From a virus (lineage: Duplodnaviria > Heunggongvirae > Uroviricota > Caudoviricetes), in the IMG/VR virus record IMGVR_UViG_2579779009_000002: 23,706 bases of DNA. One strand, written 5' to 3'. The notes under the pieces were generated by a model. The model made no database searches. It had not been told where the DNA came from and was given only the letters and a program-made list of their open reading frames with translations. The position numbers and the translations under genes were made by a program. Below are positions 1-14,202 of the stretch, piece after piece. The first letter of the stretch is position 1. The number at the start of each line of letters is the position of its first letter.

Positions 1-1044
1 TTAGCTGTTTGCTTCAAGGCTCGTTGCTTTAGTGGAAAGTGTGGCTAATGGATTGAAACGCAGTGCTGTTTCAAGGTGATCAGGGGCAAGATGTGCATAG
101 CGCATAGTCATTTTTATATCGTGGTGGCCCAGGATTTTTTGCAAAGCAAGAATGTTCCCGCCGGACATCATAAAATGTGCTGCGAACGTATGGCGTAGAA
201 CGTGGGTAAGTTGCCCGCGTGGTAGTACGATCGAGGTTCTATCCATCACGGCTAAAAACTGGAAGTAGCAGTCAGTAAATAATTTGAAGCCGTCTAGGGC
301 AACAATTTCCTCATACAGCTCTTTGCTGATCGGAATGCTGCGGTTTTTTTTGCCCTTAGTTCTGACAAATGTGATTCGGTATTTCGTGACCTGAGAACGT
401 GTCAGGTTCACAGCTTCGCGCCAACGTGCTCCGGTGCTCAAGCAGATTTTGACGACAAGAGCGAGCAGGGGGCTTTGGCGTTGACAGTCGAACAGAAGCT
501 CTGTGATTTGTTCATGTGTCAGCCAGGCCATTTCTTTTTCGGCAATGGTGAATTTACGCATGTTCTCCAGTGGATTTGGTGCTGTCCATTCACCGAGTCG
601 GGCTAACTCGCTAAAGACCCCACTCAGATAGCTTTGCTCCAGATTGATAGTTACCGGGCTGGCTCCTTTCTTCCATTTTTCGCTGAAGTAGATTTCACCC
701 GTCAGGCGCTTATCGCGATAGTGCGCGAACATTTTGGATGTTAGATCGGTGGCGAGGGGATTTCCGAGAGCATCGACCATCAGTATCAACTTGTCGTAAA
801 CATGCTCGCCAGCGGTCAGGGATTTGCCGTGCAGTTTGAACCAGAGTTCAACGATATCCTGTAGAGTTCGACGGTCTACCGATTCACCAAGCCAAGGCTT
901 AGCTTCTGCCTCCTCCATCGTGTGACGCTCAAAAGCTAATGCTTCGCCTTTGGTAGCGAACTGTTTACGCACGCGACGCCCGCTGCGTCCGGCGGGGTAA
1001 CATTCGCAAAGCCATTTCCCTGTGGTTAGTTTTCGTACTGCCAT
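1..1044 (-). CDS. int: Tyrosine integrase (P2/186-type site-specific recombinase)
   Basis: ORF-track 399-aa frame; I place the start at the internal ATG (1042-1044) preceded by GGAGGG, giving about 347 aa beginning MAVRKLTTGKW. C-terminus has the tyrosine-recombinase catalytic region (LRHTFAAHFMMSGG...HHDIKMTMRYAHL). Stop codon at 1-3, so attL would lie at or beyond the window edge. Confidence 0.9.
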   Translation of the reverse strand: MAVRKLTTGKWLCECYPAGRSGRRVRKQFATKGEALAFERHTMEEAEAKPWLGESVDRRTLQDIVELWFKLHGKSLTAGEHVYDKLILMVDALGNPLATDLTSKMFAHYRDKRLTGEIYFSEKWKKGASPVTINLEQSYLSGVFSELARLGEWTAPNPLENMRKFTIAEKEMAWLTHEQITELLFDCQRQSPLLALVVKICLSTGARWREAVNLTRSQVTKYRITFVRTKGKKNRSIPISKELYEEIVALDGFKLFTDCYFQFLAVMDRTSIVLPRGQLTHVLRHTFAAHFMMSGGNILALQKILGHHDIKMTMRYAHLAPDHLETALRFNPLATLSTKATSLEANS

Positions 1045-1232
1045 AAAAAATGCCCTCCAGTAGAGAGCATTTTCACTGTATGTATAACCAGTGTCAATGT
1101 ATGAAATCCTACGACCATACATCTCACTGAAGCCATAATTAAGTTGGCTATTCTTTTTGCTATGTGAGCATGTAATTTTTGCGGTTAACCTGCGGCTCAT
1201 TTTTATTTTAGGCGCAGATATAAAAGCAAAAG

Positions 1233-1424
1233 TTATCGTGAGTTTTTAGTACAGATTTTTTTGGATTTACTAATAGTTCCATCATTGCAAACAAATTTGC
1301 CATCTGAGGTACAGTGAGAAACACCTCCCTTTTTCCCTGAACAGGGATAATTTCTAGCATAGGTAGTTAGTGGGTTTAATAACAAAGAACATGACAAAAC
1401 CACAAAAAATACCTTACCAAGCAT
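1233..1424 (-). CDS. Small secreted Cys-rich peptide (about 63 aa; signal peptide plus about 40-aa mature part with 4 Cys), unknown function
   Basis: ATG at 1422-1424 preceded by GGGAGG (6-nt spacer) on the minus strand; N-terminus [23 protein letters not shown] looks like a Sec signal peptide; mature part [40 protein letters not shown]. Lies just downstream of the repressor gene and upstream of int. Confidence 0.45.
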
Positions 1425-1440
1425 AGTTTTCCTCCCGGTA

Positions 1441-2097
1441 CTATTTAACATACTTGACTGTTAAACTTATAATTTTACCAATTATTTCAATGTCTTCTAT
1501 CTTGCATTCGAAGGCTCTGTTTCCACCCTCGACGAAGATTCTTCCACCGGGTAAACGAGTAATGTCACGGATCGTTATTTCGCCATCAATACTTATTACC
1601 CATTTACCATCACGTATATCATCAAATTCCTTATCACAAATAAATTCAGAATTATTATCTGTGATTGCAAAAAGATTCTTGAATGCCGACGGTAGAAATT
1701 CCCTATCGAAAATATAAAAACCGTCTTCACACAAGGCCCCATCAGATAATACATATTTAGCAACTTCCATAGTATTTGTATTTGCTGATGCTTGCTTTGA
1801 ACCATGCCCTGTTGTTAGCCAATTAAGCGAGGTGCCCGTTTCAAGGGCGCACTGGATTACCCAATCTGCTGGAAAAATATCACGCATATAGCGCGTTGCC
1901 ATGGTGCTCTTAGAAACACCTAAATGATCACAGAGAGCCTGACGGGTACCGAACCCATATGCTTCAACTAAACGTTCTATGGCTTTCTTACCGCCGCTAT
2001 TGAAATCCACAAGTCCTCCAAAGAAATCCAAAATTCGTTGACAGATTCCAAAAGCGATCTTAAAGTTGAACCAGAAGTGTTCTTTTGGAGCCTTCAC
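1441..2097 (-). CDS. cI: CI-like immunity repressor (HTH N-terminal domain plus C-terminal domain)
   Basis: 218-aa ORF; HTH-like segment [33 protein letters not shown] followed by [17 protein letters not shown], which resembles 186-type CI repressors (from memory). Divergent from the apl-like gene. The codon at 2095-2097 is GTG with no obvious SD, so the true start is uncertain. Region is AT-rich. Confidence 0.7.
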
Positions 2098-7558: not shown

Positions 7559-7601
7559 TTTACATCAGTAAGATTATTATATACTGTAAATATAAACAGT
7601 G
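7559..7601 (+). promoter_or_regulatory. SOS-regulated promoter: -35 TTTACA, -10 TATACT, overlapping LexA box TACTGTAAATATAAACAGTG (7582-7601)
   Basis: CTGT-N8-ACAG with AT-rich centre matches the LexA operator consensus (TACTGTATATATATACAGTA); lies about 45 nt upstream of the antirepressor-like ORF, as for the 186 tum promoter. Confidence 0.7.
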
Positions 7602-7642: not shown

Positions 7643-7831
7643 ATGCAGGACTATTTTTTGGAGTCTTTGAAGCTCCAGCGCATTGATTTTTTTCTTAAGC
7701 TTGTAGCGGCTAGTGAGTGTAGTGATGAAGAGAAGGGGCTGGCTCTGCAGTGGGTTTCTGAATTGACTGATGAACTCATGGCAAAAATCAGAACCCACGA
7801 ATACAACCGCTCAATGGATGTCATCAGCTGA
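7643..7831 (+). CDS. Small protein in the LexA-controlled operon; candidate Tum-like antirepressor
   Basis: ATG at 7643 preceded by AGGAGG (7633-7638); 62 aa. Function inferred only from position downstream of the LexA box and next to a DinI-like gene. Confidence 0.5.
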   Translation: MQDYFLESLKLQRIDFFLKLVAASECSDEEKGLALQWVSELTDELMAKIRTHEYNRSMDVIS

Positions 7832-7841
7832 GGTGACTTTT

Positions 7842-8075
7842 ATGCGCATTGAAATAATGATCGATAAAGAGCAGAAGATTAGCCAGTCTACACTGGACGC
7901 CCTTGAATCCGAGCTTTACCGCAATCTGCGCCCCCTGTATCCCAAAACGGTAATTCGTATCCGCAAAGGTAGCTCTAACGGTGTGGAACTGACCGGACTG
8001 CAACAGGACGAAGAAAGAAAACAAGTGATGAAAATTATGCAGAAGGTGTGGGAAGACGACAGCTGGCTGCATTAA
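7842..8075 (+). CDS. DinI-like protein (SOS-regulated RecA modulator family)
   Basis: 77 aa beginning MRIEIMIDKEQ and ending KVWEDDSWLH, collinear with E. coli DinI (MRIEV...ETWESADDWF) as I recall it; GAGGTG 6 nt upstream of the ATG. Confidence 0.75.
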   Translation: MRIEIMIDKEQKISQSTLDALESELYRNLRPLYPKTVIRIRKGSSNGVELTGLQQDEERKQVMKIMQKVWEDDSWLH

Positions 8076-8345: not shown

Positions 8346-8561
8346 ATGTCAAGCATCGCCGCATTTAGCCTGGGTAACCCAGTTGAACGTCTGGCAAGGG
8401 TTCTTAAAGAGAACCAGGACAAACTCAATCTTAGTAAAGATGGTTTTGTGTCCGTAGACTTGTCTAACAAAAGAGCAATGGATGCCATCAAGGCACAGAT
8501 GGATAAGCTTGAAGGCATCAAAACGAGCACTGTAAAAGAGAAAACTAATAGAACCAGATAA
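8346..8561 (+). CDS. Hypothetical 71-aa hydrophilic protein, first gene of the accessory two-gene cassette
   Basis: ATG at 8346 preceded by AAGGGGGAG; stop overlaps the next gene's start (TAATG); AT-rich; no recognisable motif. Confidence 0.6.
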   Translation: MSSIAAFSLGNPVERLARVLKENQDKLNLSKDGFVSVDLSNKRAMDAIKAQMDKLEGIKTSTVKEKTNRTR

Positions 8562-9403
8562 TGGCAACATTACTTTTAGCAGTGATTTTGGTTAGTGGTT
8601 TTATTTATGTAAACCTATCACTTTCAACAAGATACCGATATAAGCGTTCCAACGGCTGGGACGCTTATTTTTTTGTGGCTGCCTGGGGTATCGTTTTTTT
8701 TCTCCTTGGCGGTTTTTTCACCTTTATTTTGAACGTCAGCGGAGGGTTTCGTTGGCTGGCTAATGCCTTGAATCTAACACCTGACAGTTTTAATGGCATG
8801 TTGTCTTCATCGAAAGACAAACTTCAAAGAATAAATGAAATCAAACAGATAGCATGGGTTATGATTTCAATTGTCCTCGCTGCGATTTCAGGTTTTGGAA
8901 ATAAGTTACGCACATCACGTGGAGATCGTCGCTGGGATGCCTTAGCTAAAGCTGTGGGTAATAACGCTTTCGAATCATTACTTATGGAAGCGTCCGCAAG
9001 ACAGTTTCCGATCATAGCAACTCTGTCGTCTCGCAAAATCTATGTTGGCCTTGTTACTTGTCCGGCGTTAGAAAACGGGCTTTCAGAGCACCTTGAACTT
9101 CTCCCGATGTTAAGCGGATATCGGGATAAAGATGATCTAACGATTAGTATCACGACTAACTATCACCAACATTATCTTGATAGTGGTGTGATAAGTGGAA
9201 TGTCTCGGCTTAATATCGAAGATTTCCGTGTGCTCATACCAAAAGATGAGGTTGAAACAATTTCGTTTTTTGATACTGAGACATATAACAAATTTAAAGA
9301 AAATGAAGCCAGGGATAGAAAGAACTGTCGAAAGATTGGTAGTAAAAGTGCATCTTCGCGCAGCAAGCGTGCAGCAGATGCTGAGTCAAATGATCGTGCA
9401 TGA
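8561..9403 (+). CDS. Hypothetical 280-aa inner-membrane protein (three predicted TM helices plus about 165-aa C-terminal soluble domain), second gene of the accessory cassette
   Basis: Hydrophobic stretches ATLLLAVILVSGFIYVNL, YFFVAAWGIVFFLLGGFFTFILNV and IAWVMISIVLAAISGFG; Ser/Lys/Arg-rich C-terminal tail; translationally coupled to the upstream small ORF. Confidence 0.7.
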   Translation: MATLLLAVILVSGFIYVNLSLSTRYRYKRSNGWDAYFFVAAWGIVFFLLGGFFTFILNVSGGFRWLANALNLTPDSFNGMLSSSKDKLQRINEIKQIAWVMISIVLAAISGFGNKLRTSRGDRRWDALAKAVGNNAFESLLMEASARQFPIIATLSSRKIYVGLVTCPALENGLSEHLELLPMLSGYRDKDDLTISITTNYHQHYLDSGVISGMSRLNIEDFRVLIPKDEVETISFFDTETYNKFKENEARDRKNCRKIGSKSASSRSKRAADAESNDRA

Positions 9404-9616: not shown

Positions 9617-11314
9617 ATGCATAGAATTGTTAAAGCTCATCTTGATAACTTCGTGAAAAGTCACGGTATTGAAAATCATCAAGAGGACACGCAGTTCGAG
9701 CTATTTTGTAATAAAGCTTTGCTGTCTTCTCGTATAAGTATGGATTATGAAATTGACGATGTAACAACCGGGGCTGGTGATGATGGCATGGATGGTGTTG
9801 CCATCATAATTGATGAAGAATTGTGTATATCTTCTGAAGATGCTACTTCAATATTTTCCTCATTACGTAAAAATCATGATGTTGATATTGTTTTCATTCA
9901 ATCAAAGCGTAGTGAGTCTTTTGATTTAGGTGATTTTTTAAAGTTTAAAGCTTCCGTTTTTAGATTTATAGAGGATTCTCCTTACTTATGTGTAGATGAA
10001 ATTCAAAAAAATGCAAGGGAAGTTTTTGATGTCATAATAAAAAATGTACCTAAGATAAGAGGTGGGCGACCAACTTTTACTGCTAAATATGTTGCAACTG
10101 GTTTATATAAAAAACCTAAAGAGTTAGAGAATGCTCGGAAGTTATTTGCAAAAGAAATTGACGAGTTGGGATATTTCTGTAATGTTAGCGTTGAGTTTGT
10201 TGATCGTGATGAATTAACACGTACTTGGATTGATACTTATTCAGTTGTCAATGCTGAATTGCCATTATTTAGTAATGCACCACTTCCCAAAATTAATGGT
10301 ATAGAAGAAGCTTATCTTGCTGTCGTTAAAGCAAAGGATTTTGTTGGTAATTTATTGATGACGGACGAGGGGTCTCTCCGTAATCATGTTTTTGTTGAGA
10401 ACGTCCGGGCGTTCTTGGGAATTGATAATCCTGTTAACGCATCGATTGCTGAGACAATTAAAAATAAAGATGCCGCTTCACGATTTCCTGTTTTAAATAA
10501 TGGAATAACAATTGTTAGTCCGGATGTAAAACTTCAAGGGAGTATTTTACATCTAGAAAATTTTCAGATAGTTAATGGCTGTCAGACATCAAATGTGCTT
10601 TACGAATGCCGCGATTCCTTAGATGATACGATGATGGTTAACTTGAAAGTCGTAGAGACATTAAACGAAGATGTTTTTTCAGAATTGGTTCGAGCGACTA
10701 ACAGTCAGACTAAGGTTGATGAGACTCAGTTCTATTCTCTTCGTCCAATAATAAAGAAAGTAGAAGCGTACTTTGATACTTATGAAGGGCAGGATGGTCG
10801 TTTATATTTAGAAAGACGTGAAAGACAATTTATCGGTAGAGATATACCTGCAGTTAGAGTATTTTCAGTTCATATGGCAGCTAAATGTGTAGCAGCTATG
10901 TTCTTCCGTCGGCCAGATCTTTCATATAGATACCCTAAAAAAATGTATGAATTGTTGGCTGAGAAAATATTTTCTAATGATACCAAGGAGATTGTATTTT
11001 ATTCAGCATGTTTAACATTATATAGATTACACCTACTTACTTCTAATGCTGATATTCCACAAAATATCAGGAAGTACAAATGGCATTTAATGGCGGTAGT
11101 TGGTGCTTTAATTGCCGGAAAGGATGTGCCTAATTTTGGCTCTAAGAAAATGGATGCGTATTGTAATAAAATCATCACTGAAATGACAAAGCATGGTGAT
11201 AAAATAAAAGCTACTTTCCAGAAGGCTGTTGATATTGTTTTGTCAATTGATGATATCACTGATGATAGAATGAAAAGGCAAGCTATTTTAGAGGAAATGC
11301 TTGCCAAGATTTAA
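9617..11314 (+). CDS. Large 565-aa accessory protein; candidate AIPR-family abortive-infection protein (tentative)
   Basis: ATG at 9617 with AAAGGGA upstream; very AT-rich (about 30% GC on a hand-counted 60-nt sample, versus about 58% in a late-gene sample). Motifs NNGITIV and QIVNGCQT resemble, from memory, conserved blocks of the AIPR family (PF10592). N-terminal GAGDDGMDGVAIIIDEE...FIQSKRS could be a PD-(D/E)xK-like nuclease signature (speculative). Confidence 0.7.
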   Translation: MHRIVKAHLDNFVKSHGIENHQEDTQFELFCNKALLSSRISMDYEIDDVTTGAGDDGMDGVAIIIDEELCISSEDATSIFSSLRKNHDVDIVFIQSKRSESFDLGDFLKFKASVFRFIEDSPYLCVDEIQKNAREVFDVIIKNVPKIRGGRPTFTAKYVATGLYKKPKELENARKLFAKEIDELGYFCNVSVEFVDRDELTRTWIDTYSVVNAELPLFSNAPLPKINGIEEAYLAVVKAKDFVGNLLMTDEGSLRNHVFVENVRAFLGIDNPVNASIAETIKNKDAASRFPVLNNGITIVSPDVKLQGSILHLENFQIVNGCQTSNVLYECRDSLDDTMMVNLKVVETLNEDVFSELVRATNSQTKVDETQFYSLRPIIKKVEAYFDTYEGQDGRLYLERRERQFIGRDIPAVRVFSVHMAAKCVAAMFFRRPDLSYRYPKKMYELLAEKIFSNDTKEIVFYSACLTLYRLHLLTSNADIPQNIRKYKWHLMAVVGALIAGKDVPNFGSKKMDAYCNKIITEMTKHGDKIKATFQKAVDIVLSIDDITDDRMKRQAILEEMLAKI

Positions 11315-11401: not shown

Positions 11402-12436
11402 TTAAGCTAACTCAAGGCTATATGTATTGAATTTAATAATGTCATCTTCTACCCACTCATTAATTTCTTTGATTCTTTCCTGTAAGGGGGTTAATTCGTT
11501 ACGGACGAATACCTTGCTGGCTTTTTCAATATCGCCAAATCCACCAGTGTTTTGTGGAATAATGCCCATCATCTGCGGAGGAACTCGATGTGCTGCCATC
11601 ATGTCATCGCGACTGACATTTTTGATATTCAGAAACTCATCCTTCGCCGCGACTTCTGACAACGGGATGATCTGAAGCCCGTCCTTTTTGCCGTTAGGCG
11701 AGTACATAAACAAATTGCGGAAGTTGCCTGGACCTTTGGCACTTTTCATCGCGTTGCGGAGGTTGTTTACATCTTCCTGGTTTTGCGCGGCGTCGGTCAT
11801 GTACATGATGAAGCCTGCATGACTGCCGTTAATGTAATACTTCCGGCGGAACAGCGTGGCGGACTCGTTGAGCAGGGCTGACGGAATGACAGAAAGATAG
11901 CCGGGCAGGCCGTAGATTTCTTGATTAATATCCGGCTCCATCAGGTGAAAAATGCTGCCTTTCGTGAACTGATACGGCTGCGTGGTCATGCCGTATTGCA
12001 CAAACCAGTAGGTATCCAGGTCTAACCCGCGTCGGGTGTATTTTGCCAGCGCAGGCTCAAGGGCGATAACTTCACCGAATCGGTTCGTGCGTTTCTCCAG
12101 GTAGGCGTTACCAAATACCAGATAGTCCTGCACAAAACGCGAAAAAGCCTGCTGGCTGAGCAGCGGGTGGGGGATGTAGGTACTGGTCAGAATGTTGCAT
12201 TTCACCGCAATTGGTGAACTGTGATGCACGGCGGCGCGGAAGGTGCGCGCCAGTCCGTCAAAGCTTACTGGCGGCTCATACCAGCGATCTGTCTGTAAGC
12301 ATTCCACATAGTCCAGCAGTTCGCGGCGGTCCAGAACAGGAACGGGATCACCGAAGCTGAATGCTTCGGCTGTAGTTTGACTTTTATGCTGGATCTGGTT
12401 CGTCGACGCAGCGCGGTTCTTCTTACTCTTTCCCAT
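11402..12436 (-). CDS. Q: Portal protein (P2 gpQ family)
   Basis: About 344 aa, the length of P2 gpQ, in the position and orientation of P2 Q (leftward, downstream of P, next to cos); ATG at 12434-12436 with GGAGA upstream; start overlaps the terminase stop (TGATG). Confidence 0.9.
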   Translation of the reverse strand: MGKSKKNRAASTNQIQHKSQTTAEAFSFGDPVPVLDRRELLDYVECLQTDRWYEPPVSFDGLARTFRAAVHHSSPIAVKCNILTSTYIPHPLLSQQAFSRFVQDYLVFGNAYLEKRTNRFGEVIALEPALAKYTRRGLDLDTYWFVQYGMTTQPYQFTKGSIFHLMEPDINQEIYGLPGYLSVIPSALLNESATLFRRKYYINGSHAGFIMYMTDAAQNQEDVNNLRNAMKSAKGPGNFRNLFMYSPNGKKDGLQIIPLSEVAAKDEFLNIKNVSRDDMMAAHRVPPQMMGIIPQNTGGFGDIEKASKVFVRNELTPLQERIKEINEWVEDDIIKFNTYSLELA

Positions 12437-14202
12437 CAAAAAATCTCCACAATATTACTGGTATTGGCGGACTCGCCCTGCAGTGGTTCGTTAAACAGTG
12501 CGTGCATTGTTGCCCAGGCCAGATCGGCGTGGCTGGCTTCTTCGCTGCGGCTGGCTTCATAGGTTGGGCGGTTGCCACTGGCGGTGGTTGCGCGACGGAT
12601 TGCCATGAATGACTGCGCAATGTCGGTGTGCCCGGCGTCAAACTCCAGACGGCGGTGGCTGATAATGTCGTAGGCCTTGAGTACCAGGGCGTTTTTAACG
12701 TTGGGGTTGTAGACAAACTCCCGGACGGCAGGAAAGAACGCTTTCACGTTCTCGTAAACCCCGTGACCAACGCCGGTTGAGTCGATACCGATATAGGTCA
12801 CGTTGTACTGTTCGGTAAGTTTTTTGATGGCGTCAGCCTGGGCGCGGAAGTCCATCCCGCGCCACTGGTGACGCTCAAGAATGCGGAACTTACCACCCGG
12901 CACGGCTGGCGGTGCCACCACCACGCATCCAGCGCTGTCGCCGTTTTGCGTACCTTTTGCCGGGTCATAACCGATCCACACTTCGCGCCAGCCAAACGGG
13001 CGCAGCGCCAGTGCATGAAAGTCGGTCCAGACTTCCCAACTGTCCACCATGCACGCCTGCAGCTCGCTGAGCGGAAACACGGACGCGAGATCGTCCACAA
13101 ACTCGCACATCAGCAGGTTCTGGTATTCGTCCGGGCTGTACTCCATGCGTAGCTGGTCGAGGTCGAACAGGTTACAGCCGCCGCGCACCGCATCTTCCAC
13201 GGTGACTATCTGGCGGTATTGCCCGTCTGCGCACAGCAGGCCGGGGGCCAGATTGCTGTGGGACAGGTCGATGTCCACCTTATCGGCTTTGTTGCGCCCA
13301 CGGTTGAACAGCGCACCGGACCAGAACGGATAAGCACTGTGTGTCAGACTGGATGGCGTGGAAAAATAGGTTTGTCGCCATTTTTTGTGAATAGCCATAC
13401 CGGAAGCCACTTTGCGCAGCTCCTGGAATTTCGGTATCCAGAAATATTCATCCAGATACAGGTTGCCGTGGTAACTCTGGGCCGTGCGGGCATTGGTGCC
13501 GAGGAAGTAAAGCGTGGCCCCGTTAGGAAGCACCATCGGATCGCCTTTCAGCTCCACCTCCACTTCTTTGGCAAAGTCGATGATGTACTGTTTAAAGACG
13601 TGGGCCTGAGCCTTGCTGGCAGAAAGGAAAATCTGGTTACGCCCGGTCAGCAGGGCGTCAATCAGGGCTTCACGGGCAAAGTAAAAGGTCGCGCCGATCT
13701 GGCGTGACTTCAGCAGGTTGCGGATGCGGTTGGTTTTTCCGGCTTCCCACCAGTGGCGCTGGTAGTTGAACATGGAGGAATGGAAGATTTCTTCCAGTTT
13801 CTCAATCTGTTCATCGGTGAAAACATTCTTTTCCGGCTGACGACGTGGGCCTTTGTTGCGGTTGGCAACGTTAGGGTTTAAGTCGGCTTCGTTGCCGCCA
13901 TTGTTAAACTTGCCGATCCGCGCGTGGCGCTCAGACTGGCGTGCCAGCAGGTCAATTTCTTTGAAATCTTTCCCTTCTTTGTGCTCCTTCATAATGAGCT
14001 GGCAGTAGCGTGCGGCGGTGGTGAGCTGCATCTGATCCAGCGGCCCATAGTCACCCCACTTGTCGCGTTTTTTCCAGCTGTGAACGGTTGCAACTTTCTC
14101 GCCCAGCATTTCAGCAATGCGGGCGACGCGGTATCCCTGAAAGTACAGCAGCATGGCCTGCCGACGGGGATCGAGATCTGCGGGTGTCAGTGTGGTGTTC
14201 AT
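12436..14202 (-). CDS. P: Terminase large (ATPase) subunit (P2 gpP family)
   Basis: 588 aa, close to the 590 aa of P2 gpP, upstream of Q on the same strand and divergent from the O operon; the assignment rests on length and gene order. Confidence 0.9.
   Translation of the reverse strand: MNTTLTPADLDPRRQAMLLYFQGYRVARIAEMLGEKVATVHSWKKRDKWGDYGPLDQMQLTTAARYCQLIMKEHKEGKDFKEIDLLARQSERHARIGKFNNGGNEADLNPNVANRNKGPRRQPEKNVFTDEQIEKLEEIFHSSMFNYQRHWWEAGKTNRIRNLLKSRQIGATFYFAREALIDALLTGRNQIFLSASKAQAHVFKQYIIDFAKEVEVELKGDPMVLPNGATLYFLGTNARTAQSYHGNLYLDEYFWIPKFQELRKVASGMAIHKKWRQTYFSTPSSLTHSAYPFWSGALFNRGRNKADKVDIDLSHSNLAPGLLCADGQYRQIVTVEDAVRGGCNLFDLDQLRMEYSPDEYQNLLMCEFVDDLASVFPLSELQACMVDSWEVWTDFHALALRPFGWREVWIGYDPAKGTQNGDSAGCVVVAPPAVPGGKFRILERHQWRGMDFRAQADAIKKLTEQYNVTYIGIDSTGVGHGVYENVKAFFPAVREFVYNPNVKNALVLKAYDIISHRRLEFDAGHTDIAQSFMAIRRATTASGNRPTYEASRSEEASHADLAWATMHALFNEPLQGESANTSNIVEIF

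What the first reader, a model, noticed from the sequence alone, without database searches (positions are those of the whole stretch)
1233..1424. Small secreted Cys-rich peptide gene inserted between the repressor and integrase genes
It has a strong SD, a signal-peptide-like N-terminus and four cysteines in a roughly 40-aa mature part, and sits downstream of cI on the lysogenic strand, so it would probably be expressed in the lysogen. I do not recall a gene at this position in P2 or 186. Candidates: a lysogenic-conversion factor, a superinfection-exclusion peptide, or a periplasmic toxin or immunity peptide.
Basis: partly seen in the sequence, partly recalled or inferred. Interest (0 to 1): 0.5.

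Follow-up and report, generated by a model that had tools for sequence, protein, structure and literature searches.

The report
Prophage copy of periplasmic YdcA mini-protein
This is a real, strongly conserved 63-codon gene that a 186-like prophage carries just after its repressor gene; it encodes an exported, disulfide-held 40-residue protein of the catalogued YdcA family, whose function is unknown, so the sequence is ordinary but its role in the lysogen is still open.

Summary
Window 1233-1424 (-) is a 63-codon gene with a GGGAGG ribosome-binding site, 16 nt after the cI stop and 188 nt before int. It has a signal peptide and four invariant cysteines in a 40-aa basic mature part.

It is not new. 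The exact protein is RefSeq WP_000900883.1, "YdcA family protein" (NCBIfam NF007463 above cutoff, Pfam PF27300, PHROG 6000). The full-length gene is in 628 of 5426 complete E. coli genomes. Nearly all E. coli also carry the chromosomal paralogue ydcA, whose function is unknown.

P2 and 186 do lack a gene here. However, cI -> ydcA-like -> (0-1 cargo gene) -> int is conserved in 186-like prophages of E. coli, Klebsiella, Yersinia and Hafnia, and in Haemophilus phage HP2, where the gene is unannotated.

New leads:
- The domain resembles the two lobes of Legionella Dot/Icm Dis2.
- It is fused N-terminally to three families of secreted nucleases.
- The same slot in Vibrio phage K139 encodes Glo, a soluble periplasmic exclusion protein that is not homologous.

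Best reading: a binding protein made in the lysogen and exported to the periplasm. It possibly hinders entry of foreign DNA, but that step is speculative. A toxin or a lipoprotein is unlikely.

The parts
1233..1424 (-). ydcA-like CDS: 63 codons plus the stop at 1233-1235
   Evidence: ORF list and sequence. NF007463 scores 115.8 bits, above the cutoff of 93. PHROG 6000 matches at E 1.9e-34. PGAP annotates the identical gene as WP_000900883.1, YdcA family protein. Purifying selection is shown.
1356..1424 (-). Signal-peptide coding part (residues 1-23, [23 protein letters not shown]). The predicted SPase I site is after Ala23.
   Evidence: It has a K4 n-region, a hydrophobic core and T-Y-A at -3 to -1. 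Ala23 is invariant, while the rest of the leader diverges freely among homologues. No SignalP run was possible, so cleavage is inferred.
1236..1355 (-). Mature peptide coding part: 40 aa, 4.3 kDa, pI 9.7, four Cys. The core is [32 protein letters not shown].
   Evidence: Invariant residues are P27 C28 S29 K32 G33 G34 C38 F44 C46 D48 G49 S52 S54 K55 C58. The AF2 core has pLDDT 83-91 and forms a short beta-hairpin.
1431..1436 (-). Shine-Dalgarno GGGAGG of the ydcA-like gene, 6 nt before the ATG
   Evidence: Read directly from the sequence.
1441..2010 (-). 186-type CI repressor gene, the upstream cistron of the same lysogenic transcription unit
   Evidence: Pfam Phage_CI_repr at 3e-31 and Phage_CI_C at 2e-26.
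1046..1074 (-). 13-bp hairpin followed by a U6 run, immediately before the int ATG. Its 3' arm holds the int SD (GGAGG). It is a likely attenuator or terminator that ends the cI-ydcA unit.
   Evidence: RNA fold of 1245-1040 (-): -58.1 kcal/mol, z = -4.6. The arms are kept, with a compensatory UA<->CG change, in the E. coli, Klebsiella and Hafnia siblings.
1069..1097 (-). Promoter-like TTGACA-17-GAAAAT. Its spacer is a LexA-box-like palindrome, ACTGGTTATACATACAGT (1075-1092). It is a candidate SOS-controlled int promoter downstream of the ydcA-like gene.
   Evidence: Promoter scan. The palindrome search expects 0.03 matches by chance. It is conserved upstream of int in all sibling prophages.
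1..1044 (-). Tyrosine integrase gene
   Evidence: Pfam Int_N at 7e-32 and Phage_integrase at 8e-21.

Best explanation
**What it is**
The ORF is a genuine gene for a YdcA-family protein. It is a paralogue of the core E. coli periplasmic protein YdcA, carried as fixed cargo in the lysogeny operon of a 186-like prophage.

**How it most likely works**
1. It is the second cistron of the lysogenic transcript (pL/pE -> cI -> ydcA-like). It has its own strong SD 16 nt after the cI stop, so it is made whenever repressor is made.
2. A hairpin with a U-run and a LexA-box promoter separate it from int.
3. The 63-aa precursor is exported by Sec and cut by signal peptidase I after Ala23.
4. The 40-aa basic product (pI 9.7) folds in the periplasm into a small beta-hairpin domain held by two disulfides.
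5. It has no catalytic features, so it acts by binding in the periplasm, probably near the outer membrane.

**The target I commit to**
I think it binds incoming nucleic acid, or the envelope machinery that carries it. The lysogen would then be less permeable to foreign DNA. This would be a soluble periplasmic exclusion factor, functionally like K139 Glo.

**What is shown and what is inferred**
- Shown: the gene, family membership, purifying selection, synteny, and the domain fusions.
- Inferred: export, disulfides, co-transcription with cI.
- Speculative: the target.

**Sub-probabilities**
- Real YdcA-family gene: 0.97.
- Made in the lysogen: 0.8.
- Periplasmic non-enzymatic binder: 0.7.
- Target related to DNA entry: about 0.25-0.3.
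For: **Family and reality of the gene**
- NF007463 scores above its cutoff. PHROG 6000 matches. PF27300 is recorded on all close homologues.
- pN is far below pS.

**Operon position**
- The gap to cI is 16 nt and the gene has its own SD.
- The simple scan finds no minus-strand terminator between cI and the gene.
- The hairpin with U6 and the LexA-box promoter lie only downstream of it.

**Conserved synteny cI -> YdcA -> (0-1 cargo gene) -> int**
- Seen in a second E. coli allele with a different cI, and in Klebsiella, Yersinia and Hafnia.
- Seen in Haemophilus HP2, where the ORF starts at the last base of the cI stop codon.
- CI repressor and integrase are the most frequent neighbours across 76 species-level loci.

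**Periplasmic location**
- The -1 Ala is invariant while the leaders diverge.
- K-12 YdcA is described as having a signal sequence and as a predicted periplasmic protein (bioRxiv 10.1101/2024.02.12.579971).

**Binding module near the outer membrane**
- The only structural relative is Dis2 (7MUC chain AN).
- Dis2 sits near the outer membrane and contacts DotK, DotC and DotD (PMC8486379; PMC12716638).

**Link to nucleic acids**
- Among 148 family representatives, 5 carry any other Pfam domain.
- Four of those five domains are nuclease-type: SNase x2, Endonuclease_NS, PLDc_2.
- At least 7 more SP-YdcA-Endonuclease_NS proteins turned up in the larger search.

**Exclusion or defence setting**
- The adjacent slot in sibling prophages holds a KAP NTPase that matches PADLOC candidate PDC-S20 at E 1e-171.
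- In Vibrionaceae K139-like P2-related phages, the cI-int interval is a published defence hotspot (PMC9122126).
- The same slot in K139 encodes Glo, annotated "periplasmic protein; involved in phage exclusion" (PMC3952083).
Against: - There is no experimental datum for this protein, and none shows what any YdcA does.
- The host already has a core ydcA (5412 of 5426 genomes match). That fits housekeeping in the envelope as well as defence.
- The only reported phenotype is chemical stress. Delta-ydcA in E. coli W is sensitive to 300 mM 3-hydroxypropionate, and expression is said to rise in acid (PMC7642389).
- PADLOC has no model that hits it.
- Dis2 binds proteins, not DNA, and its deletion has only subtle effects (PMC12716638).
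- The core of the SNase-fused domains has net charge 0 to +1. Basic charge is therefore not universal in the family.
- Fusion to nucleases could equally mean an anchoring or localisation module.
- Neighbour genes across species show no enrichment for nuclease or competence functions.
- The Dis2 link is statistically marginal once the signal peptide is removed: HMM E 0.06, Foldseek E 0.29, hhalign probability 59%.
- Export, cleavage and disulfides are predicted, not measured.
Confidence: 0.45

Rival explanations
1. Lysogenic conversion by dosage or variant. The prophage supplies an extra or altered copy of the host envelope factor YdcA. This improves tolerance to acid, organic acids or other envelope stress, and has no role against phages or foreign DNA.
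For: - The chromosomal ydcA is core in E. coli.
- The prophage core is about 75% identical to it.
- Delta-ydcA in E. coli W is sensitive to 300 mM 3-hydroxypropionate, and ydcA is reported to be acid-induced under YdcI (PMC7642389).
- ydcA is up-regulated on the way into stationary phase or persistence (bioRxiv 10.1101/310961).
- Other phages carry the gene as a classic moron inside their structural modules.
Against: - The phenotype comes from a single study at an extreme acid load, and no mechanism is known.
- It does not explain the recurrent nuclease fusions.
- It does not explain the fixed position next to a defence-cargo slot.
Confidence: 0.25
2. Dis2-like accessory. The peptide docks on outer-membrane lipoprotein assemblies such as conjugative T4SS, T6SS or other envelope machines. 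It modulates them, for example as entry exclusion against plasmids, rather than touching DNA.
For: - The resemblance to Dis2.
- Dis2 contacts the lipoproteins DotC and DotD and the OmpA-like DotK (PMC12716638).
- UniRef names the exact protein "Conjugal transfer protein".
- Homologues occur on Acinetobacter mobilisable plasmids, next to a gene annotated as conjugal transfer protein TraD and a MobA/MobL gene.
- One subfamily is fused to, or adjacent to, the T6SS domains VasL and ImpA.
Against: - There are no T4SS or T6SS genes in the window.
- The UniRef name is an automatic label with no visible basis.
- Dis2 is dispensable for structure and nearly so for function.
- The Dis2 lobes have lost the basic character of stand-alone YdcA.
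Confidence: 0.12
3. Secreted toxin or bacteriocin-like cationic peptide, or an immunity peptide for one.
For: It is small, cationic (+7), rich in disulfides and has a Sec leader, so it looks superficially defensin-like.
Against: - There is no export, processing or immunity partner gene next to it in any context.
- The producer and nearly every E. coli carry a paralogue.
- The Sec route ends in the periplasm.
- No bacteriocin or toxin family matches in Pfam, NCBIfam or PADLOC.
Confidence: 0.04
4. Outer-membrane lipoprotein of the Cor/Llp type that blocks a phage receptor.
For: There is a Cys at residue 12 in the context V-L-S-C. One close variant, P0006, has a longer leader that would fit a lipobox.
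Against: - C12 lies too close to the N-terminus, after a 5-residue hydrophobic stretch.
- K4 breaks the uncharged run that the lipobox rule requires.
- The Cys is absent or in a non-lipobox context in the Yersinia, Hafnia, E. coli-2, Klebsiella, HP2 and K-12 homologues, whereas Ala23 is invariant.
Confidence: 0.03
5. Chance ORF, or a spacer that only tunes int expression.
For: It is short and lies in an AT-rich region (34% GC).
Against: - pN 0.03-0.13 against saturated pS.
- A curated HMM scores above its cutoff.
- 339 clusters at 50% identity were found across Alpha-, Beta- and Gammaproteobacteria.
- The same domain occurs in non-phage contexts and as a fusion partner.
Confidence: 0.01

Closest known systems
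E. coli K-12 YdcA (b1419, NP_415936.1) and the YdcA family (Pfam PF27300; NCBIfam NF007462-64 / PRK10040; PHROG 6000)
   Same: - The architecture is the same: signal peptide plus a core of about 35 aa, PCSGxKGGxSHC...[17 protein letters not shown], with four Cys.
- The equivalog NF007463 is passed.
- The exact protein is already named "YdcA family protein" in RefSeq.
   Different: - The location differs. This copy sits in the cI-int lysogeny operon of a prophage, not between rydC and hokB on the chromosome.
- The leader is unrelated.
- About 8 of 32 core residues differ.
- The core is more basic.
- The family's function is unknown.
Legionella pneumophila Dis2 (Lpg0823; PDB 7MUC/7MUD chain AN), component of the Dot/Icm T4SS outer-membrane cap
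   Same: - Each Dis2 lobe carries the same motif (CCSKMGGINYC..GRLVCNNGxxS and GGV....GLVVCNDGxxSE).
- It is the top Foldseek hit for both AF2 models (probability 0.98 and 0.87, 38-39% identity).
- It is the top PDB HMM hit (E 1e-4).
- BLASTP to a Dis2-like protein gives E 4e-5 and 2e-4. That protein carries a precomputed PF27300 hit.
- It has a Sec leader and is periplasmic, disulfide-held and close to the outer membrane (PMC8486379).
   Different: - Dis2 is a tandem of two lobes pinned by five disulfides. It is acidic to neutral and part of a T4BSS.
- The prophage protein is a single basic lobe with four Cys, and no T4SS is nearby.
- The statistics are marginal without the leader (E 0.06; hhalign 59%).
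Glo of Vibrio cholerae phage K139 (P2-related), a soluble periplasmic superinfection-exclusion protein
   Same: - It occupies the same slot and logic: PL -> cI -> ... -> glo -> int.
- It has a Sec leader and is a soluble periplasmic product made in the lysogen (PMC3952083).
- The cI-int interval of K139-like phages is a described defence hotspot (PMC9122126).
   Different: - There is no sequence relationship (hhalign probability 0.1%; no Vibrio phage hit).
- Glo is 137 aa and not Cys-rich.
- An exclusion phenotype has not been tested for the YdcA-like protein.
Unannotated ORF of Haemophilus phage HP2/S2 between cI and orf1-int (NC_003315 2487-2669, complement)
   Same: - It is a true homologue: 60 aa, core [31 protein letters not shown].
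- It lies in the same place, with its ATG starting at the last base of the cI stop codon.
- It shares 77% nucleotide identity over 69 nt with the window gene.
   Different: - The host family and leader differ.
- It is followed by a 254-aa secreted orf1 rather than a bare spacer.
- It is not annotated in the GenBank record.
Secreted nucleases with an N-terminal YdcA domain (for example P0281/P0302 Endonuclease_NS, P0133/P0218 SNase, P0205 PLD-like)
   Same: They have the same domain directly after the signal peptide.
   Different: In these proteins the domain is an accessory to a catalytic nuclease. The prophage protein is the domain alone.

Membership tests
YdcA family (NCBIfam NF007463 / Pfam PF27300) | Profile-HMM score above the curated cutoff | tested here: met
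   NF007463 scores 115.8 bits against a cutoff of 93, covering residues 5-63 on profile positions 1-58. PF27300 is precomputed on the cluster representative P0001, which is 98% identical. The local Pfam copy lacks PF27300.
YdcA family (NCBIfam NF007463 / Pfam PF27300) | Core motif P-C-S-G-x-K-G-G-x-x-x-C ... F-x-C-x-D-G-x-x-S-x-S-K-x-x-C with four Cys | tested here: met
   All 16 invariant columns of the 29-sequence alignment are present. The same pattern holds in 148 representatives at 50% identity.
YdcA family (NCBIfam NF007463 / Pfam PF27300) | N-terminal Sec signal peptide cut by SPase I; periplasmic product | tested here: inconclusive
   The n/h/c regions and the invariant Ala at -1 are seen in the alignment. 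No signal-peptide predictor or experiment was available.
Dis2 (Lpg0823) of the Dot/Icm T4SS | Sequence and fold similarity to a Dis2 lobe | tested here: inconclusive
Dis2 (Lpg0823) of the Dot/Icm T4SS | Two tandem lobes pinned by five disulfides | tested here: not met
   The protein is a single lobe with four mature Cys. Dis2 is described in PMC8486379.
Dis2 (Lpg0823) of the Dot/Icm T4SS | Part of a T4BSS outer-membrane cap (contacts DotC, DotD, DotK) | not testable with these tools
   No T4SS genes appear among the window ORFs I listed and the subset I scanned. Physical partners cannot be computed here.
Periplasmic superinfection-exclusion proteins of P2-related phages (K139 Glo) | Encoded in the lysogenic operon between cI and int; exported soluble product | tested here: met
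   The K139 layout is.
Periplasmic superinfection-exclusion proteins of P2-related phages (K139 Glo) | Homology to Glo | tested here: not met
   hhalign probability is 0.1%.
Periplasmic superinfection-exclusion proteins of P2-related phages (K139 Glo) | Reduces plating of superinfecting phage | not testable with these tools
   This needs plating-efficiency assays.
Bacterial lipoproteins (Cor/Llp-type exclusion) | Conserved lipobox [LVI][ASTVI][GAS]C at the end of a proper leader | tested here: not met
   V-L-S-C12 is too N-terminal, and K4 interrupts the uncharged run. The Cys is not conserved among homologues.
Known anti-phage defence proteins (PADLOC-DB v2) | Match to any defence HMM | tested here: not met
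   The peptide has no hit. The neighbouring KAP NTPase of sibling prophages hits PDC-S20 at 1e-171.
DUF3761 (PF12587) | HMM match, tested directly and as a tandem or circular permutation | tested here: not met
   There is no hit at E<=10 for the tandem-duplicated or the permuted mature peptide. Only the triple-repeat relative P0081 carries a precomputed PF12587 hit.

The most novel reading that the evidence does not exclude
- The YdcA domain would be a previously unrecognised, disulfide-held periplasmic module that recognises DNA, or the envelope conduit that DNA passes through.
- Secreted nucleases of three folds use it as their N-terminal accessory domain.
- Legionella duplicated it to make the T4SS cap protein Dis2. 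The Dot/Icm papers read here describe Dis2 as restricted to Legionellales, with no obvious homologues elsewhere.
- 186-like and HP2-like prophages express the bare domain from the repressor transcript. There it would act as a soluble periplasmic factor that blocks entry of foreign DNA, by superinfection, transformation or conjugation.
Probability: 0.2. Interest if true: 0.65.

Novelty: already known. Interest (0 to 1): 0.35.

Why it matters
As a sequence it is ordinary. The exact protein is in RefSeq, Pfam, NCBIfam and PHROGs, and about one E. coli genome in nine carries it.

Three things make it a cheap and well-defined experimental target:
- A y-gene family of unknown function is core in E. 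coli.
- It is a fixed passenger of the repressor transcript in a whole lineage of P2/186-like prophages.
- It now has three convergent clues: the Dis2 resemblance, the nuclease fusions, and the Glo-like position next to a defence-cargo slot.

A positive result would give a function to YdcA. It would also add a second kind of soluble periplasmic exclusion factor, and show that a "Legionella-specific" T4SS component belongs to a widespread domain family.

Tried and rejected
- **DUF3761 relationship by circular permutation (recalled from memory).** Pfam gave no PF12587 hit for the peptide, a tandem duplicate or a permuted version. I dropped it for this protein. Only the triple-repeat P0081 has a precomputed PF12587 hit.
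- **Rfam on the whole window.** Nothing.
- **PADLOC on the peptide.** Nothing.
- **A universal downstream partner gene.**
  - Moraxella and Acinetobacter copies are followed by weakly related single-pass membrane proteins.
  - HP2 orf1, the KAP NTPase and the Hafnia 347-aa protein are unrelated to them, and the window has none.
- **Neighbour-domain census over 76 species-level loci.** Apart from CI and integrase there is no recurrent functional partner, and no nuclease or competence genes.
- **Name collisions.** "ydcA" on plasmid pS88 is a DNA methylase. I took the Neisseria gonococcal island and B. subtilis "ydcA" hits for further collisions, without opening those papers.
- **The "plasmid" hits in E. 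coli.** The one I inspected (H67) holds the same prophage beside chromosomal genes (rcdA, ybjJ), so I read it as a chromosome fragment; H68 is a near-identical hit.
- **Homology to K139 Glo.** None.
- **Upstream ATG at 1451 as the start.** It has no SD, overlaps cI, and is not used by PGAP.
- **Weak Pfam and PDB hits** (GULLO2-like, EGF_BRNP, potato-type proteinase inhibitors, LDL-receptor repeat). All are below threshold and typical of Cys-rich queries.
Full report
**1. The observation**

The minus strand of window 1233-1424 holds a 63-codon ORF. Its product is [63 protein letters not shown].
- A GGGAGG Shine-Dalgarno lies at 1436-1431, 6 nt before the ATG at 1424. The TAG stop of the upstream gene (1443-1441) is 16 nt before that ATG.
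- The upstream gene is a 186-type CI repressor (Phage_CI_repr 3e-31, Phage_CI_C 2e-26). The downstream gene, 1-1044 (-), is a tyrosine integrase.
- PGAP annotates identical DNA in E. coli chromosomes with the same boundaries: cI, a 63-aa "YdcA family protein" (WP_000900883.1), and a phage integrase.
- The rest of the window I looked at is 186-like: Apl/Cox-like, CII, Fil, DUF5347, DUF2732, TraR/DksA, Dam and replication endonuclease A. The remaining large ORFs were only listed, not scanned.
In 186, cI and int abut. In P2, C and int are 115 nt apart with no gene between them.

**2. It is a real gene**

I compared the 32-codon core with homologues from a second E. coli prophage type, Klebsiella, Yersinia, Hafnia, HP2, K-12 and Moraxella.
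- Synonymous differences are saturated (pS 0.66-1.0), while non-synonymous differences are 0.03-0.13.
- The leader peptides are almost unrelated, apart from an invariant Ala at the predicted -1 position.
- The core keeps 16 invariant residues, including all four Cys.
- The mature product would be 40 aa, 4.3 kDa, pI 9.7, with 9 K+R against 2 D+E.
- AlphaFold models, with and without the leader, give a short beta-hairpin core (pLDDT 83-91 with the leader; 10-residue block means 70-87 and no residue above 90 without it).
- A lipoprotein reading of V-L-S-C12 fails. The Cys is too N-terminal, K4 interrupts the uncharged run, and the Cys is not conserved.

**3. What it is**

NCBIfam equivalog NF007463 (PRK10040.1-2) scores 115.8 bits against a cutoff of 93. 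PHROG 6000, of unknown function, matches at 1.9e-34. All close homologues carry Pfam PF27300, "YdcA".
- The exact sequence is recorded on at least 1000 contigs of E. coli, Salmonella and Klebsiella.
- 505 IMG/VR viral contigs encode a relative.
- In 5426 complete E. coli genomes, 628 carry the full-length prophage gene at 90-100% identity (2 more at 80-90%).
- In the same set, 5412 have a match. Most of these are the chromosomal ydcA, at about 75% identity over the mature part.
- K-12 ydcA (b1419) lies between rydC and hokB and has the same architecture.
- A 2024 preprint calls K-12 YdcA a 57-aa predicted periplasmic protein of unknown function.
- The only phenotype I found is sensitivity of E. 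coli W delta-ydcA to 300 mM 3-hydroxypropionate, together with reported acid induction (PMC7642389).

So the finding is a phage-borne paralogue of a core host gene from a catalogued family with no assigned function.

**4. Context elsewhere**

*In lysogeny operons.* The order cI -> YdcA-family gene -> int recurs with diverged alleles (overall identity 53-69%).
- It is seen in a second E. coli prophage type with another cI, in the Klebsiella pneumoniae complex, in Yersinia enterocolitica and in Hafnia alvei.
- Between the ydcA-like gene and int there is either nothing, as in the window and Yersinia, or one variable gene.
  - One such gene is a 443-aa KAP P-loop NTPase that matches PADLOC defence candidate PDC-S20 at 1e-171.
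  - In Hafnia it is a 347-aa protein with no family.
- About 100 nt of the window's 188-nt spacer, directly after the ydcA-like stop, has no BLAST match in the KAP-carrying sibling.
- The roughly 90 nt before int are shared with that sibling.
- In Haemophilus phage HP2 (and S2), an unannotated 60-aa homologue starts at the last base of the cI stop codon. A secreted orf1 and int follow it.

*In other elements.*
- In Moraxella and Acinetobacter phages the gene sits inside the head-tail module, like a classic moron.
- It also occurs on Acinetobacter and Rhizobium plasmids.
- Across 76 species-level loci, CI repressor and integrase are the commonest neighbours (5 each). No other functional partner recurs.
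- No deposited enterobacterial phage genome carries it.

**5. Transcription logic (inferred)**

- In 186, pL and the CII-dependent pE transcribe cI and int as one lysogenic operon. This is the annotation of NC_001317.
- Here I saw no promoter or terminator in the 16-nt gap between cI and the ydcA-like gene. The scan lists no minus-strand terminator down to 1233.
- Downstream I found two conserved elements.
  - The first is a promoter-like TTGACA-17-GAAAAT (1097-1069). Its spacer is a LexA-box-like palindrome, ACTGGTTATACATACAGT (expected 0.03 by chance). It is conserved as TTGACnACTG-N10-CAGT in every sibling prophage.
  - The second is a 13-bp hairpin with U6 (1074-1046). Its 3' arm contains the int SD and it ends 2 nt before the int ATG.
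    - The fold has z = -4.6.
    - The arms covary between the window, the E. coli sibling and the Klebsiella sibling.
- The simplest reading is that the repressor transcript carries cI plus the ydcA-like gene and is attenuated before int.
- An SOS-derepressed transcript would start inside the 5' arm and so leave the int SD free.

This supports expression in the lysogen. It has not been measured.

**6. Clues to mechanism**

*(a) Structure.*
- The top PDB hit for both models is chain AN of 7MUC/7MUD, Legionella Dot/Icm Dis2 (Lpg0823). Foldseek gives probability 0.98 and 0.87, with 38-39% identity over 38-39 columns.
- A family HMM also finds it first (E 1e-4) and matches both of its lobes.
- Without the leader the E-value falls to 0.06.
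- A Dis2-like protein recovered from the protein database carries a precomputed PF27300 hit. It aligns to the mature peptide at E 4e-5 for lobe 1 and 2e-4 for lobe 2. hhalign gives 59%.
- I judge the homology likely (about 0.75) but not proven.
- Dis2 is described as two similar lobes pinned by five disulfides. It lies next to the outer membrane and contacts DotK, DotC and DotD.
  - Its deletion has subtle effects.
  - The two Dis2 papers I read describe it as species-specific, restricted to Legionellales, with no obvious homologues elsewhere (PMC8486379; PMC12716638).

*(b) Domain fusions.*
- A mature-core profile finds 339 clusters at 50% identity.
- Of 148 top representatives, only five carry any other Pfam domain. 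Four of those are nuclease-type: SNase twice, Endonuclease_NS and PLDc_2. The fifth is T6SS VasL.
- A wider search adds at least seven proteins of about 310 aa built as signal peptide, YdcA domain, linker, Endonuclease_NS. It also adds tandem two- and three-repeat proteins.
- The core usually has net positive charge (median +3; the window's is +5). K6, K/R17, K29 and K/R30 of the core are nearly invariant. The SNase-fused copies, however, are near neutral.

*(c) Positional analogy.*
- In the P2-related Vibrio phage K139, the lysogenic operon is PL-cI-orf2-glo-int.
- Glo is a soluble periplasmic protein involved in phage exclusion (PMC3952083).
- Rousset et al. describe the cI-int interval of K139-like phages as a defence hotspot (PMC9122126).
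- Glo is not homologous to YdcA.

**7. Reading**

- Well supported: this is a non-enzymatic mini-protein, probably made in the lysogen and exported to the periplasm, that acts by binding.
- My preferred target, with about 0.25-0.3 probability, is incoming DNA or the envelope route it takes. That would give exclusion of foreign DNA.
- This fits the nuclease fusions, the Dis2 link to a conjugation-derived machine, the defence-slot neighbourhood and the Glo precedent.
- MGE-borne periplasmic or secreted DNases that block DNA uptake are known (review PMC12378983).
- The main rival, about 0.25, is plain lysogenic conversion by an extra envelope-stress factor. That matches the only reported ydcA phenotype and the core status of the host gene.
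- A Dis2-like role docking on envelope machines is third.
- Toxin, lipoprotein and chance ORF are unlikely.

**8. Novelty and score**

- The gene and its family are already catalogued, so on the novelty scale it is "already known".
- I did not find the following stated in the literature I could search: the fixed place of the gene in the lysogeny operon of a whole prophage lineage, the missing annotation in HP2, the likely kinship with Dis2, and the nuclease fusions.
- These are leads, not demonstrations.
- Interest is 0.35. It is a tidy, testable case of an unknown-function moron, but not a surprise to a specialist.

Noticed in passing
window 1069-1097 (-), palindrome 1075-1092: A promoter-like TTGACA-17-GAAAAT lies just upstream of int. 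Its 17-nt spacer is a LexA-box-like palindrome, ACTGGTTATACATACAGT. It is conserved as TTGACnACTG-N10-CAGT before int in all sibling prophages of E. coli, Klebsiella, Yersinia and Hafnia. This suggests an SOS-controlled int promoter, which 186 is not annotated to have.
   Followed up: partly
window 1046-1074 (-): A 13-bp hairpin, GAAAAUGCUCUCU-ACU-GGAGGGCAUUUUU, ends 2 nt before the int ATG. Its 3' arm holds the int SD and is followed by a U run, so it looks like a terminator or attenuator. The region's z-score is -4.6, and the arms covary among siblings. A transcript from the LexA-box promoter would start inside the 5' arm and escape the hairpin.
   Followed up: partly
window 7583-7600 and 7770-8075 (+): A second LexA-box-like palindrome, ACTGTAAATATAAACAGT, lies upstream of an ORF with a DinI-like domain (Pfam 5.9e-23). 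From memory, this may correspond to the LexA-controlled tum antirepressor module of 186; I did not check that.
   Followed up: partly
window 9617-11314 (+): A 565-aa AIPR/AbiU abortive-infection protein (Pfam AIPR 1.5e-43; PADLOC AbiU 4.4e-112). It sits between the replication gene A and large minus-strand ORFs (11402-14202) that I took, from memory and without a scan, for the portal and terminase. A 2026 preprint describes the primase-portal interval as a defence hotspot in P2-like phages.
   Followed up: partly
window 8561-9403 (+): A 280-aa ORF in the same cargo region has no Pfam or PADLOC match.
   Followed up: no
L001 2920-3102 (+) = NC_003315.1 2487-2669 complement: The Haemophilus phage HP2 (and S2) record lacks an annotation for a 60-aa YdcA-family gene that starts at the last base of the cI stop codon.
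   Followed up: yes
L010 5198-6529 (also L011-L013, L097, L098): Sibling 186-like prophages carry a 443-aa KAP P-loop NTPase between the ydcA-like gene and int. It matches PADLOC candidate PDC-S20 (E 1e-171) and, weakly, PifA. The cI-int interval therefore looks like a small cargo or defence slot in enterobacterial 186-like prophages too.
   Followed up: partly
proteins P0133, P0218, P0193, P0205, P0281, P0302, P0246, P0081, P0082, P0084, P0103: The YdcA domain occurs as an N-terminal accessory of secreted SNase, Endonuclease_NS and PLD-like nucleases. It also occurs as 2-3 tandem repeats and fused to a T6SS VasL domain. The two Dis2 papers I read (2021, 2025) treat Dis2 as restricted to Legionellales.
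   Followed up: partly
window about 1100-1800: An AT-rich island (33-38% GC, against 45-56% in int and the replication genes) covers the ydcA-like gene, the spacer and the 3' half of cI.
   Followed up: no
L014 5186-5884, L004 4126-4578, L008 966-1697: In Moraxellaceae (chromosome, phage Mcat17, plasmid pApiMCR53a) the ydcA-like gene is followed within 10-60 nt by weakly related single-pass membrane proteins. This may be a lineage-specific partner. It is absent from the window.
   Followed up: partly
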